From contig OZ024755.1 of assembly GCA_964016885.1 (NCBI GenBank), positions 25,854,001-25,918,000 of the forward strand: 64,000 nucleotides of DNA, read 5' to 3'. This DNA is from Eledone cirrhosa. Lineage: Eukaryota. Shown piece after piece: positions 6,600 to 39,308 of this stretch (positions are counted from its first letter, which is position 1; the number at the start of each line of letters is the position of its first letter). The notes under the pieces are model-generated. The model was not told the DNA's origin. It saw only the letters and a list, made by a program, of their open reading frames with translations, and did no database searches. Made by a program: the position numbers and the translations under genes.

Positions 6600-6729
6600 A
6601 TGTCTAGGATGGAAGAGACAGCTATCAATGTCATAAAACGTGCAATTACTCTCGACAAGGAGAAGCATTTTGAACAATCCGTGGTTTGTTATGAAGAAGG
6701 AATTGGTCTCTTGCTAACAGCTATGAAAA
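6600..6729 (+). CDS. MITD1: MITD1-A coding exon 1 ([43 protein letters not shown])
   Basis: ATG at 6600, donor gtaagt at 6730; possible upstream acceptor ggtag at 6581-6585. Confidence 0.9.
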
Positions 6730-9700
6730 GTAAGTTTTACATGTGTCTGTCTCTTATTCTGCTTCCCTTGCTATTTTAAACAACGGCAGTATATATAATA
6801 ACAATAAACACTTATCTGGTGCCAACGAAGTTTGTTTAACGAAGAATGAATAAGACTCCTTTACCCTCTGTAACACTAGAAATAATATAATAATTATATA
6901 TAAGAATAATCTATTCTATACTATAATAATTGTTTCTACTTTTGGCACAAGGTAAGCAATTACCCAGTACATTACTGGTACTTTATCAACCCCCGTAAGG
7001 ATGAAAGGCAAAGTTGACCTCGGCGGGATTTTAACTCAGAATGGAAAGGGCCGTAACTCTATGCGTCAAAGCATGACGTCCGACCTTCTACCGATACTGC
7101 CAATCCACCGCCCTTCTATAATGTTTCTGACTTAGGCACAAGGCCAACAATATATATATATAATGGAGGCACATGGCTTAGTGGTTAGTGCATTGGGCTT
7201 GCAATCGAAAGGTTGTGAGTTCAATTCTCAGACGGGTGATGTGTTGTTTCCTTGAGCAAAAGACACCTTATTTCACATTGCTCCAGTTTACTCAGCTGTA
7301 GAAATGAGATGATAGGGACTGGGGTCCATATCATTCCACTGTAAAGTGATCGTGGAGGTGCCACGGCAAAAAAGCACCCAGCACTCACTGTAAATGAGGT
7401 TGGTGTTAGGAAGGGCATCCAGCTGTAGAAATCAAGCCAGAATCAGTTCCCGTCCCACCCTTGCAAGCAGGGAAAAGCGGACGTAAAATGATGATGATGA
7501 TATATATCATCATCATCATCATTTTACATCCGCTGATTCTGGCTTGATTTCTACAGCTGGATGCCCTTCCTAACACCAACCTCATTTACAGTGAGTGCTG
7601 GGTGCTTTTTTTTTTTTGTCGTGGCACCTCCACGACCACTTTGCAGTGGAATGATAAGGACCCCAGTCCCTATCATCTCATTTCTACAGCTGAGTAAACT
7701 GGAGCAATGTGAAATAAAGTGTCTTGCTCAAGGAAACAACACATCACCCGGTCTGAGAATTGAACTCACAACCTTTCGATTGCAAGCCCAATGCACTAAC
7801 CACTAAGCCATGTGCCTCTATATATATATAGGTAGAAGTGGTAACACAACAGTTAGTTCACCATACCAAGAACAATTGTTTCACCTTACTGGATCTTCAG
7901 CTCATAATGGTCATGGTGATACGGAACAGGAAGAACAACTGTATGAACGTATGAATGCGCATACGCAGAAACGGTCTCTTCACCCAAGCAATACATACGT
8001 TCATATGGTTGTTCTTCCTAACCATTATGAGCTGAAGATCCGCTAAGGTGAAACAATTGTTCTCGGTATGGTGAACTAACTGTTGTGTTACCACTTCTAC
8101 CTAACTCGTCCCATGGACTGAGTGCTCTATCACTACGGATATTACCTCCCAGTGTTCTACCTCTATCATCATCATCATCATTTTACGTCTGCTCTTCTCT
8201 GCTCGCAAGGGTGGGACGGGTCTTATTCAGCACAGCATCTCTCCACTCGTCACGGTCCTTCGTCATCTCCACCGTGAGCTTCAACGATCTGAGGTCTGTT
8301 CTCACCACCTCCGCCCATGTTTTTTGTGGTCTACCTCTAACACATCTTCCTTCAACTGGCATTTCCTGGCACCTCTTCAACCATCGGTCATCCTCCATGC
8401 GCATCACATGTCCATACCACCTCAGTCTCCTCTCCCGTACACTACATTCTATCCCTCTCAGACACAGTTTCTCTCTCAACACATTCATGCTGGGTCGTTC
8501 ATGCACATTGACATTGCACATCCAACGGAGCATACTTGCCTCAATTCTCTCCAGCCGTCACATATCCTCTGCAGTTGCTGCCCATGTCTCACTACCATGC
8601 AGCATCGCACTCCTCACACAGGCATCATACAACCGGCCTTTCATACGCAGGGAGAAACCCTTCTTCGTCAGCAGAGGAAGCAGCTCCCTAAACTTCTTCC
8701 AACCCGTCCTTATTCTAGATACTATGGCTTCGGAACACCCTCCTCCCATGTTAATCTGATCTCCTAGGGACCAGAAGCTCTCCACTACTTCTATAGCACC
8801 CTCCTGCATTTGAAAAATGTGTCTATCAATGCAACTTTTACTGTCTAATTTCCCTGTACATCTACTGCATACATATTTCTCCCTACCTGTTAGTTTGCCT
8901 GCTACCCCGCTACATCTCTTGTGTACCCAGGATCTGCATTGTGTGCATTTTATAGAATTTATGCCAGTTCCTTTTCTGCATATCGAACATGACCATTTCC
9001 CTGACGGAATCAGAGTTTTGTCCTCTTTTCTACTCATCAACACTTTTGTCTTAGCTAGGTTCACTCTCAGTCCTCTTGCTTCCAACTGCTGTTTCCATAG
9101 CCAGAATTTATTCTCTAGCTCCTCTACTGATTCTGCTATAAGAACCAGATCGTCAGCATAGAGAAGTTCCCATGGACAGCCAGTCTTAAACTCATCTGTT
9201 ATGGCTTGGAGGACTATAATGAACAAGAGTGGGCTGAGGACCGAACCTTGATGTACTCCTACTTGTATCTGGAATTCTTCACTAAACTCCATTCCTACCC
9301 TGACTTTACTGAGAGTACCTCTGTACAAAGTTTGCACTGTCCTAACAAGCCATTCCTCAACACCTAGTTTCCTTAGGGACCACCAGATGACAGATCAGGG
9401 TACCCTATCAAAGGCCTTCTCTGGGTCAACAAAGGCTAAGTATTGTGGCTTATTTTTCTCTAAGAACCTCTCTTGCAATTGTCTCACCAAGAAGAGGGCA
9501 TCTGTTGTACTCTTCCCAGGCACAAAACCAAACTGCATCTCATCTAGTTTGACCCTTTCTCTAATTAGTTGTGCTAATATCCTTTCTGCCACTTTCATAA
9601 CCTGATCCATCATATATATATGCTAACCTTGGTGGGATTTGAGTTCAGAACGTAAAGAGCCATAACTCTATGCTGCTGAGCATGTTGTTGGACACTCTAC

Positions 9701-36900: not shown

Positions 36901-39308
36901 AACACATTCTGCTCACACAAAAAAGGGCAAATACAGTGTAAGTACAAATAGTCGATTACATTGACAACCTACCTTGGGTGGAGATTGCAAACAAAACTAA
37001 CAGGGATGTAACTTTAGACATTGTATACCCTGCTAACTTTGAACATATAAAAGAAAACTCCCTACCTTTTCAATATAGTCCCTGGAAAAAAACAATGCAG
37101 TTATTAATAAGATTTGGTAGTGATGGTGCCAAAATAAAGGAACACAGTAGACTCTGTATACCAGCTGACATTAGGAGAAGCAGCCAACCATAAAAACCAT
37201 GACAAAATGGAACATGAGCTAGAAGTGGTTCTCCAACCCACCTTTTCTCAAACTGAAAAGTGGGCATCAAATGATGATATAACTCTATGGTAAGGGGGTA
37301 CAGACATAGCTGTGTGGTTAAGGAAGTACAGGCATGGCTGTATGGTTAAAGTGGTACAGACATGGTCGTGTGGTTAAGGAGGTATAGGCATGGCTGTGTG
37401 GTTAAAGTGGTACGGATATGGCTGTGTGGTTAAAGTGGTAAAGACTTGGCTGGGTGGTTAAAGTGGTAAAGACATGGCTGGGTGGTTAAAGTGGTAAAGA
37501 CATGGCTGGGTGGTTAAGGAAGTACAGACATGGCTGTGTGGTTAAGCCGGTACAGACTTGGCTGTGTGGTTAAGCCATTACAGACATGGCTGTGTGGTTA
37601 AGGTGGTACAAACATGGCAGTGTGGTTAAGCCAGTACAGATAGCTGACTGGTTAAGGAGCTGTAGGTATGGCTTTATAGTGATGTTGACGTTGATTTTTT
37701 GTATTCTTCCAGATTATGAACTTTCTGCGATTCTGTGAACTTCTGCACAAATCTGCTGCAAACGTAAAATTAATCACTCTAAATACAAGCTCTGAAAATG
37801 TAAGTATTGTTGAGTTAACGAGGGCTTATTAGATCATTTAATGAGGGGAACCTGTATATGATTGTTGATCATTCTATTGTTGAGTTAACAAGAGCAGCTT
37901 CTATATGGTTGCTGGACATATTAGAAAAGGTAGTCAAATTCCCCTCATGTTTCACCTTGACTCTATGAATATCAATTAGATATTAAACTGCACTAAACAG
38001 ATGAATTCTCTTCCTTAATTCTCACTATTTGAACATCCCCGAAAGAAATTTTGGTTCTGAAATTGCAAGGATAACTTCAGTTGGTTGTAGTTTTGTGCCT
38101 CCCACTCTCCATCTTCAGATAGGGAGACACTATTTGTATATATACACTTTATGCAGAATGTTCCCCCTCCTCAGGTATTTCCATTTTACCTATTGTTGAC
38201 ATAAGTAATCTACACATTATTTCTTTTTCCCTTTCCTATATCTATCTGACCATTTTTAGTCTAACCAGCTTACAAGGTGAATATGCTTTGTTGAAGAGAT
38301 GTAATAAGATCGAAACATGTCCAATGCTTTCACCAAGTTGACTTATAGACCAGTTCCACTTCCATAGCATTTTTTGAAATTGTTCCACTCCATCAATCCC
38401 CTACACTCCACCAGTTAACCTACACTCCACCAGTTGACCACACTCCACCAATTAACTTTCACTCCACCAGTTAAGCTCTACTCACCCAATTTCTTATTCC
38501 ATTACAGAATAGCGACAAGGTAGCCCAACAAAAAAACGCATTATCTACGATGCATGAAGAGTTTAAAAGACACAAAATTGATTTAGTTGTCACCTACAGC
38601 AAATCCTTGCACGATAGAGAAGTAAGGTGAGTCAACACTTTAAACCCTTTGTAATACTAAACCACTCTTAAACCTTTTGTAATATAAAACCACCTGAAAC
38701 TGCCCCTGGTTCTATGATACAGGACTTTATTTTAAAGTGTTTATATTTATCTAAAAACCATCCATCATAAGTTTATGTAAGAACCTATGTTATATAATGT
38801 TCCAAACACTGTCATAATTATATGAAAGTTATTTGGGGATTTTCAGAATGATTTGAAAATCATAAACAGTGTCTTTCATTAGAAATATGGTAACAATTGT
38901 TAAAGTGTTAATATTTATCTAAAACTTTTCCATTATAATTTTATATAAGAACCTTTATTATGTTTCAAACCTCAGTTTAATCATGAGAAAGATAGTTATG
39001 TTACAAATCTCTCTATCAAAGATTTTAGATAAATATAAACACTTTAACAAACAGCAGGGTGTCCTATGTTCTACCAATACTGCCAATCCCCTGCCCACAA
39101 CAACAATAATAATAATAATGTTCTTTTCTGTTTCATTGAACTCAGGTTTAATAACGGCTGGATTATTAAGATTGGTCGTGGCCTCGACTATTTCAAGAAT
39201 GTTCCAAAGTTCAGCATTGGTTTCCAAGACTATGACCTACGACCCTGTCAAGAGACAACTATTAATATCTTCCATGCCAAACATGTTTCCAAGGACAAAG
39301 AGAGTTAA
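33850..39308 (+). CDS. MITD1: MIT domain-containing protein 1, copy B (exons 33850-33979, 34456-34557, 35030-35166, 37713-37799, 38508-38626, 39146-39308; 245 aa)
   Basis: Same exon structure and motifs as copy A; open frame throughout; one extra codon in exon 5. Confidence 0.95.
34456..34557 (+). CDS. MITD1: MITD1-B coding exon 2
   Basis: Identical to copy A exon 2; AG/GT borders. Confidence 0.92.
35030..35166 (+). CDS. MITD1: MITD1-B coding exon 3
   Basis: ...[33 protein letters not shown] borders. Confidence 0.93.
37288..37665. repeat. 28-bp minisatellite in MITD1-B intron 3
   Basis: About 13 units. Confidence 0.93.
37713..37799 (+). CDS. MITD1: MITD1-B coding exon 4
   Basis: Identical to copy A exon 4. 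Confidence 0.93.
38508..38626 (+). CDS. MITD1: MITD1-B coding exon 5
   Basis: [44 protein letters not shown] borders. Confidence 0.92.
39146..39308 (+). CDS. MITD1: MITD1-B coding exon 6
   Basis: [22 protein letters not shown]...SKDKES*. Confidence 0.95.

What the first reader, a model, noticed from the sequence alone, without database searches (positions are those of the whole stretch)
6600..39308. Young MITD1 tandem paralogues diverging mainly by amino-acid changes
Seen by manual comparison: 20 codons differ non-synonymously (exon 1: 5, exon 3: 4, exon 5: 9, exon 6: 2), plus a one-codon indel, against 4 synonymous changes. Exons 2 and 4 are identical and both frames are intact. Changes cluster in MIT helix 1, next to DPYIR (RENHQ/RQHHQ) and at the start of exon 5. 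Established: MITD1 binds ESCRT-III CHMP proteins through its MIT domain, has a catalytically degenerate PLD fold, and is typically single-copy. Inference: positive selection or neofunctionalisation, possibly driven by conflict over ESCRT membrane remodelling such as viral use; relaxed constraint is also possible.
Basis: partly seen in the sequence, partly recalled or inferred. Interest (0 to 1): 0.7.

Follow-up and report, generated by a model that had tools for sequence, protein, structure and literature searches.

The report
Diverging twin MITD1 genes, octopus-like genome
An octopus-like animal carries two intact, side-by-side copies of a gene that is likely MITD1, a helper of the cell's membrane-cutting machinery; the copies differ mostly by mild amino-acid swaps, likely kept by selection while DNA exchange evens out the rest, a known pattern that the numbers here suggest but do not prove.

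Summary
Observation confirmed exactly: two six-exon genes with open frames (244 and 245 aa) in head-to-tail units of 28.0 and 21.7 kb; 20 non-synonymous codons, 4 synonymous, one codon indel. The duplication is probably real: the junction is gap-free and non-homologous, and one sample's contigs hold letters of both copies plus further versions. Copy B is spliced in an RNA-like run; expression of A is untested. Positive selection is not shown: pN/pS is 1.3-1.9, p 0.1-0.5. Replacement sites (about 4%) do exceed the gene's introns (67/3753, 1.8%; p 0.002-0.004), but exon 5 carries this, and it lies in a more diverged tract; without it p is 0.17-0.26. Swaps are more conservative than chance (p 0.0005-0.002), and 3 of 4 silent changes lie within 8 nt of a replacement (p 0.036). 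Best reading: patchy gene conversion, with selection keeping surface differences, as in frog ATP1A1 duplicates. Drift at tolerant sites is a close rival. Viral conflict has no direct support: 15 of 20 changes lie outside the domain that suffices for human MITD1's antiviral action. No outgroup was obtained.

The parts
2147..30179 (+). Duplication unit A (about 28.0 kb)
   Evidence: Self-BLAST collinear matches to unit B
30178..51856 (+). Duplication unit B (about 21.7 kb)
   Evidence: Self-BLAST
30170..30230 (.). Tandem junction: sequence that continues beyond 51856 in B breaks off at 30179 and joins the GT-rich start of the unit; 2-base overlap, no N
6600..6729 (+). Copy A exon 1 (start of the likely MIT domain); 5 replacements and 1 silent change against B
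11620..11721 (+). Copy A exon 2, identical to B; holds M62/E66
12188..12324 (+). Copy A exon 3; 4 replacements, 1 silent; DPYIR motif
15720..15806 (+). Copy A exon 4, identical to B
16770..16885 (+). Copy A exon 5; 9 replacements, 2 silent, one codon shorter than B; HDR motif at 186-188
17486..17648 (+). Copy A exon 6 to the stop; 2 replacements
33850..33979 (+). Copy B exon 1 (the spliced contig starts at 33785)
34456..34557 (+). Copy B exon 2
35030..35166 (+). Copy B exon 3
37713..37799 (+). Copy B exon 4
38508..38626 (+). Copy B exon 5
39146..39308 (+). Copy B exon 6 to the stop
   Evidence: B letters at 39198 and 39251 in run X4
32534..33736 (.). 1.2 kb present only upstream of B, ending 114 nt before its ATG, so the proximal upstream regions of the two copies differ
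6963..11539 (.). 4.6 kb of intron 1 present only in A
16312..16498 (.). Dispersed-repeat insertion in A intron 4, flanked by a direct repeat, absent from B
15807..16885 (+). More diverged tract (intron 4 3.3%, last stretch before exon 5 6.9%, exon 5), B counterpart 37800-38626

Best explanation
Two intact MITD1-like genes sit in a tandem duplication that is probably real; patchy gene conversion between them likely keeps most introns and exons 2 and 4 alike, while selection likely preserves a set of mild, predicted surface amino-acid differences, which would let the copies share the ESCRT-III-binding core but differ in expression and in the C-terminal membrane-binding and self-assembly domain. 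Shown: the duplication anatomy, open frames, the 20/4/1 differences, patchy divergence, different proximal upstream DNA, and splicing of copy B. Inferred: gene conversion as the cause of the patchiness; selection as the cause of the replacement excess; an unchanged ESCRT-III contact (M62/E66 have the spacing of human M69/E73 and lie in a 74-codon run without change); any division of labour. Not known: which copy changed, and whether A is expressed.
For: Real duplication: gap-free non-homologous junction. Sample S1 contigs carry copy-A letters at 25 of 29 checked sites, plus one that matches A once its indel is counted, and B letters at others. The other 3 of 29 letters match neither copy, and 46003-47223, which A lacks, occurs in two versions in S1 (9 letters and 2 gaps off in X1 and X2, 1 letter off in X3). 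If S1 is the assembled animal this is more than two versions in one diploid. Copy B is spliced: an 822-nt contig in X4 joins exons 1-2-3 with 0 other letters across 12 A/B-diagnostic sites. Patchiness: non-coding divergence runs from 1.0 to 6.9% among 11 segments, with identical runs of 409, 360 and 311 bp. Selection: replacement sites 22.5 of 531-582 against 67 of 3753 in the gene's non-coding DNA, p 0.002-0.004; stratified by exon with 600-bp flanks p 0.007-0.022. Mean BLOSUM62 of 18 single-base swaps is 1.0 against -0.1 to -0.3 expected, p 0.0005-0.002. Conservative class 6% against silent 2.0-2.8% and radical 1.6-1.9%. 3 of 4 silent changes within 8 nt of a replacement, p 0.036, the signature described for frog ATP1A1. 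Transversions 15 of 27 in exons against 55 of 167 outside, p 0.03.
Against: dN/dS does not differ from 1 (p 0.10-0.51). Without exon 5 the excess over introns is not significant (11 of 446-488 against 58 of 3623, p 0.17-0.26). With 150-bp flanks the stratified test gives p 0.31-0.46, with 300-bp flanks 0.03-0.08. Exon 5 lies in a tract whose non-coding part is itself 3-7% diverged. Intronic divergence does not rise next to replacements outside that tract (4/452, 15/1017, 16/1415 by distance). Conservative against silent is p 0.04-0.11. The supporting tests are post hoc, not independent and uncorrected. No outgroup, so conversion is not shown by a tree and the changes are not polarised. One replacement (38622) has its B letter unconfirmed in 3 of 3 genomic contigs. 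MITD1 had dN/dS 1.25 between two corals (PMC3102110), so the gene may simply tolerate many swaps.
Confidence: 0.45

Rival explanations
1. Real duplicates under relaxed constraint: one or both copies drift at tolerant surface positions, and the exon 5 peak is only an older or unconverted tract. No adaptive difference; copy A may be redundant.
For: pN/pS not different from 1. The signal fades without exon 5 or with near flanks. Radical swaps occur at about the intronic rate (6 observed, 5.6-6.6 expected at 1.8%). Only 0.4-0.6 stop codons are expected at that divergence, so open frames say little. High dN/dS for MITD1 in corals.
Against: Conservative swaps are about three times the intronic rate (12 observed, 3.4-3.6 expected, p 0.0002-0.0004; without exon 5, 7 against 2.6-3.0, p 0.016-0.034), which drift alone does not give. 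A 74-codon run has no change (p 0.011).
Confidence: 0.3
2. Allele capture: an unequal crossover joined two already divergent alleles of a polymorphic gene, so the amino-acid differences predate the duplication, which may still vary in copy number.
For: Most A/B intronic divergence (1.0-1.5%) is only about twice that of the second version seen in S1 (9 of 1223 letters). A mosaic of coalescence times also gives patchy divergence. Contigs in X2 and X3 combine A letters in intron 4 with the empty insertion site of B, although contig building can make such mosaics.
Against: Seven large indels (about 15 kb) and about 4% replacement divergence are far above the 0 other letters over the 15 listed S1 contig pieces at 50464-56055 and the 2 of 3350 and 6 of 2872 letters in X4.
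Confidence: 0.13
3. Assembly artefact: A and B are the two haplotypes of one locus, placed in tandem.
For: No read or contig across the junction was examined. Non-coding divergence of 1.9% (167 of 8800) is within what some molluscs show between alleles (recalled).
Against: The junction has no N and joins unrelated sequence. More than two versions of the 3' region occur if S1 is the assembled animal. Allelic differences seen elsewhere in the region are far smaller.
Confidence: 0.1

Closest known systems
Human MITD1 (MIT domain plus MIT_C phospholipase-D-like domain; PMC3496609 passages; PMC9477494 passages; PMC11962514 abstract, passages and section 7)
   Same: Length (244/245 against 249 aa); an M-x-x-x-E pair at 62/66 with the spacing of the ESCRT-III-binding M69/E73; an acidic residue before PYIR and an HDR motif, as described for MIT_C (PMC12065111 passage); no canonical HKD motif at that site.
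   Different: Two tandem copies here. Six coding exons (seven in human, recalled). No binding, localisation or antiviral data for these proteins. Orthology rests on motifs and recall, not on a profile search or tree.
Leptodactylus ATP1A1 R/S tandem duplicates (bioRxiv 10.1101/2020.08.04.234435; abstract and main text part 1 of 2 read)
   Same: Tandem, same orientation; copies differ mainly by replacements; silent differences lie close to replacements (median 4 bp there; 3, 4, 5 and 59 nt here).
   Different: There, five species show the conflict between nucleotide and protein trees, and the selective agent and function were tested. Here there is one genome, four silent sites, no outgroup and no known agent.
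Neofunctionalisation under gene conversion (Teshima and Innan model; recalled, not read)
   Same: A local peak of neutral divergence at the most changed exon (intron 4 to exon 5, 3-7% against about 1.3%).
   Different: No such peak at exons 1, 3 or 6; an unconverted tract or old allelic variation would give the same peak.

Membership tests
MITD1 | N-terminal MIT three-helix domain | not tested
No profile search or fold was run on the protein.
MITD1 | Met and Glu four residues apart, needed for ESCRT-III binding (human M69/E73) | tested here: met
   M62/E66 in both copies, the only such pair in residues 2-90 (PMC3496609). Equivalence is by spacing and a 7-residue offset, not by an alignment.
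MITD1 | MIT_C motifs: acidic residue after strand 2 and HDR motif | tested here: met
   D114/D115 before PYIR and HDR at 186 (A) and 187 (B), unchanged (motif description in PMC12065111). Strand positions were not modelled.
MITD1 | Degenerate phospholipase D motif (no HxKxxxxD at the site) | tested here: met
   HxRxxxxN at 186/187. A second match, HxKxxxxD at 234/235 in the last 11 residues, is taken as chance.
MITD1 | Binds CHMP/IST1 tails, self-assembles, binds membranes | not testable with these tools
   Needs bench assays.
MITD1 | Normally single-copy | not tested
   No relative genomes were available; recalled only.
Duplicates held apart by selection against gene conversion (ATP1A1 R/S type) | Tandem, same orientation | tested here: met
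Duplicates held apart by selection against gene conversion (ATP1A1 R/S type) | Silent differences cluster beside replacements | tested here: inconclusive
   3 of 4 within 8 nt, p 0.036; intronic sites show no gradient outside the exon 5 tract.
Duplicates held apart by selection against gene conversion (ATP1A1 R/S type) | Protein tree groups by copy, nucleotide tree by species | not tested
   No outgroup or second species was obtained.
Duplicates held apart by selection against gene conversion (ATP1A1 R/S type) | Both copies expressed and functionally distinct | tested here: inconclusive
   B is spliced in one run; A and function are untested.
Positively selected paralogues | dN/dS significantly above 1 | tested here: not met
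   pN/pS 1.3-1.9, p 0.10-0.51; power is low with 4 silent codons.
False duplication (uncollapsed haplotypes) | No physical junction; at most two versions per diploid; half depth | tested here: inconclusive
   The junction is gap-free and non-homologous; extra versions occur in S1; no spanning read was examined; contig depth is conflicting.

The most novel reading that the evidence does not exclude
An invertebrate has split MITD1 into a broadly expressed cell-division copy and a second, defence-tuned copy that traps ESCRT-III away from viral membrane factories, with selection holding the two apart against gene conversion. It would be a duplicated ESCRT-decoy restriction factor in a lineage without interferon, in a group where flaviviruses are named (squid flaviviruses, PMC8269200 passages).
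Probability: 0.1. Interest if true: 0.75.

Novelty: new member of a known kind. Interest (0 to 1): 0.36.

Why it matters
No paper on an MITD1 duplication or on octopus MITD1 was found (0 papers hold both 'MITD1' and 'octopus'; open-licence library only). If selection keeps the differences, the pair is a natural experiment on what the poorly understood phospholipase-D-like domain does: 15 of 20 changes lie there, three of them beside motifs proposed as a catalytic site (E120Q and N121H after DPYIR, I190V after HDR; PMC12065111 raises the idea that MITD1 is an enzyme). If drift explains it, this is an ordinary recent tandem duplicate.

Tried and rejected
No whole genome is held, so other copies and flanks beyond the window are unchecked. 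No outgroup protein was obtained and no family scan, fold or complex was run; direction of change, branch dN/dS, site conservation and structural mapping remain open.

Run search: no RNA holder listed; X4 is taken as RNA-like only because its contig joins exons. No A-type contig was laid from X4 at exons 1-3 (bin depths 10.1, 7.86 and 2.91 equal the one B contig). Contigs drop rarer variants, so this says nothing on whether A is expressed. X4 has no cover at 38622, and its exon 4 and 5 pieces were not among the rows shown, so the exon 5 version in the transcript is unverified; the 822-nt length fits all six exons plus 19-22 nt.

RAD runs X5-X7 covered only dispersed repeats; the cut-site survey did not identify the enzyme pair.

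Contig depth as copy number: gene-to-flank ratio 1.52 (X1, 4 against 3 contigs), 1.52 (X2, 3 against 3), 0.45 (X3, 3 against 3), pooled 0.99. Expected: about 0.75-0.85 for alleles, 1.2-1.35 for a duplication on one chromosome, 1.45-1.7 on both. Two runs fit paralogues and one fits no model; the tool says contig depth is no copy number, so I drew nothing from it. My notebook first called the 43095-43180 letters A-type; one search showed they match neither copy.

RNA editing fixed in DNA: 9 of 12 exon transitions are A/G, but the genetic code favours these for mild swaps, and the X4 contig showed no other letters in exons 1-3; not pursued. Pseudogene decay of A: frame, splice sites and motifs are intact and the swaps are conservative, so it is disfavoured but not excluded.

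Hadders et al. 2012 (PMC3491508) is not held. Notes of this scan: nothing near the window, nothing on MITD1 duplicates (one search listed 8 of 91, mostly archaeal look-alikes).
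Full report
Anatomy. Self-comparison shows a head-to-tail duplication: unit A at 2147-30179 and unit B at 30178-51856. Each holds a six-exon gene with GT-AG introns and an open frame, 244 aa in A and 245 aa in B. At the junction, sequence that continues beyond 51856 in B breaks off at 30179 and joins the GT-rich start of the unit, with a 2-base overlap and no N. Seven large indels (4575, 361, 185 and 3452 bp only in A; 1201, 2454 and 2889 bp only in B) separate the units. 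The copies are collinear for only about 114 nt upstream of the ATG, beyond which B has 1.2 kb that A lacks, so they may be regulated differently (inference). 'Octopus-like' rests on unchecked notes from the same genome and my recall of the repeat style; it was not tested.

The observation. All counts are exact. In A numbering the replacements are R3S, T7S, V11I, K22R, H23Q, R98T, N102D, E120Q, N121H, G153N, R154S, H157V, S158A, A165T, D168E, Q169E, R174K, I190V, H209N and H226Q, plus one extra Gln in B; 4 codons differ silently; exons 2 and 4 are identical.

Identity. No profile search, fold or outgroup comparison was run, so the name MITD1 rests on motifs. M62/E66 have the spacing of human M69/E73, which are needed for ESCRT-III binding and midbody recruitment (PMC3496609, passages). 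An acidic residue before PYIR and an HDR motif match the description of MIT_C (PMC12065111, passage). All of these are unchanged in both copies. With a constant 7-residue offset (inferred), R98T and N102D fall in the stretch that human MITD1 needs for self-assembly (88-123). Helix 1 may line a second ESCRT-III-binding groove (PMC9477494, passage), but whether the exon 1 changes face it is unknown.

Is the duplication real? Seven runs were listed. In the three runs of sample S1, 25 of 29 checked variant letters are those of copy A, one more matches A once its adjacent indel is counted, and 3 match neither copy. B letters also occur (for example X1 at 42224-42236, X3 at 40369, and second contigs at 37825 and 39198), so neither copy is a consensus error overall. 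The segment 46003-47223, absent from A, occurs in two versions in S1. If S1 is the assembled animal, which the tool says the best holder may be, that is more than two versions in one diploid and excludes a haplotype artefact; if it is not, the point is lost. The segment contains old LINE-like pieces, so a near-identical copy elsewhere is a residual caveat. No read across the junction was examined, and contig depth was conflicting (see Tried and rejected). I put the duplication at about 0.88.

Expression. Run X4 (library not on record, a second sample of the same study) holds an 822-nt contig laid at 33785-33979, 34456-34555 and 35028-35166 with 0 other letters, across 12 sites that tell A from B. 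It shows the B letter at 39198 and 39251. Copy B is therefore transcribed and spliced as predicted at introns 1 and 2. Copy A is untested.

Selection. Counting methods give pN/pS 1.3-1.9, depending on the transition bias (kappa 1 to 4.07), with p 0.10-0.51: not different from 1. Using introns as the neutral yardstick, 22.5 changes in 531-582 replacement sites exceed 67 in 3753 (p 0.002-0.004), while silent sites (4.5 in 150-201) match the introns (p 0.35-0.78). Columns in tandem repeats or within 5 nt of a gap were dropped before these counts. The yardstick is uneven: 1.0-1.5% in most segments, 3.3% around exon 4, 6.9% (9 of 130) just before exon 5 (heterogeneity chi-square 82, 10 df). Without exon 5, p is 0.17-0.26; stratified by exon, p is 0.31-0.46, 0.03-0.08 and 0.007-0.022 for flanks of 150, 300 and 600 bp. 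The kind of change is more telling: the 18 single-base swaps average BLOSUM62 1.0 against -0.1 to -0.3 expected (p 0.0005-0.002); 12 are conservative against 3.4-3.6 expected at the intronic rate, while 6 are radical against 5.6-6.6 expected. Residues 24-97 carry no change (p 0.011), and 9 of 20 fall in exon 5 (p 0.001). Three of 4 silent changes lie within 8 nt of a replacement (p 0.036), but introns show no such gradient outside the exon 5 tract. These tests are post hoc, overlapping and uncorrected.

Mechanism. The most economical reading is the one worked out for frog ATP1A1 duplicates (bioRxiv 10.1101/2020.08.04.234435, abstract and first half of the main text): conversion between tandem copies erases differences except where selection keeps replacements, and the silent sites beside them survive too. 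It accounts for long identical runs, patchy divergence, exons more diverged than introns, and an unchanged binding core. I give it 0.45. Drift at tolerant sites takes 0.30 (MITD1 already showed dN/dS 1.25 between two corals, PMC3102110 section 9), allele capture 0.13 and artefact 0.10. An unchecked note on this genome reports the same pattern for proteasome subunit duplicates, so it may be a recurring feature of this genome; that is a lead, not support.

Viral conflict. [quoted passage not shown] Squid flaviviruses are named in PMC8269200 (passages). But the action is indirect, 15 of 20 changes lie in the dispensable domain, and the known contact pair is unchanged. I give it 0.10.

Novelty. 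No paper holds both 'MITD1' and 'octopus'; the 3 and 4 papers returned for MITD1 with duplication terms concern other genes by their listings; of 8 returned for MITD1 with positive selection I opened 2. The library is open-licence only. Hadders et al. 2012 was not available, and no supplements were read; published MITD1 alignments there could show how conserved the 20 sites are. Verdict: a correctly described and probably real tandem pair, a new instance of a known evolutionary pattern, with suggestive but unproven selection. Interest 0.36.

Noticed in passing
window 55560-63990, minus strand: Exons of an Argonaute-like gene (PIWI domain). The exon near 61283 reads RNGVSEGQ where slicing Argonautes have Asp in place of Asn (recalled), while the first Asp (GADVTH, near 62108) and the last His (near 57345) are present: possibly a slicer-impaired Argonaute, unless it is an error in the assembly.
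   Followed up: partly
window 44561-55693: Eight long X4 contig pieces tile most of this region, one of them (3366 nt) reaching the last Argonaute-like exon: likely a 3' untranslated region of about 11 kb that runs into unit B, whose far end is also duplicated, with deletions, in unit A. Strand and continuity are not shown by contigs.
   Followed up: partly
window 2504-5390 and 30483-31894: A 43-bp satellite upstream of each copy, 66 and 32 units; a second 28-bp array in intron 3, 28 and 12 units.
   Followed up: no
window 7150-7830 and 7830-8160: Two adjacent long inverted repeats in intron 1 of copy A: the first from self-BLAST (7182-7287 and 7698-7802 match one repeat in opposite directions), the second seen by eye in the sequence.
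   Followed up: no
window 5390-5768: A 379-bp GC-rich, CpG-rich piece (55% GC, CpG o/e 0.76) found only upstream of copy A, 830-1200 nt before its ATG; a possible copy-specific promoter element.
   Followed up: no
window 43095-43255: X1 and X2 contigs show two different versions of this stretch, each unlike both window copies, which would fit four versions (two copies on two chromosomes) in sample S1.
   Followed up: partly
window 8387-9610 and 19395-20620: Two LINE-like reverse-transcriptase remnants, 69% alike, both in DNA specific to unit A (family recalled).
   Followed up: no
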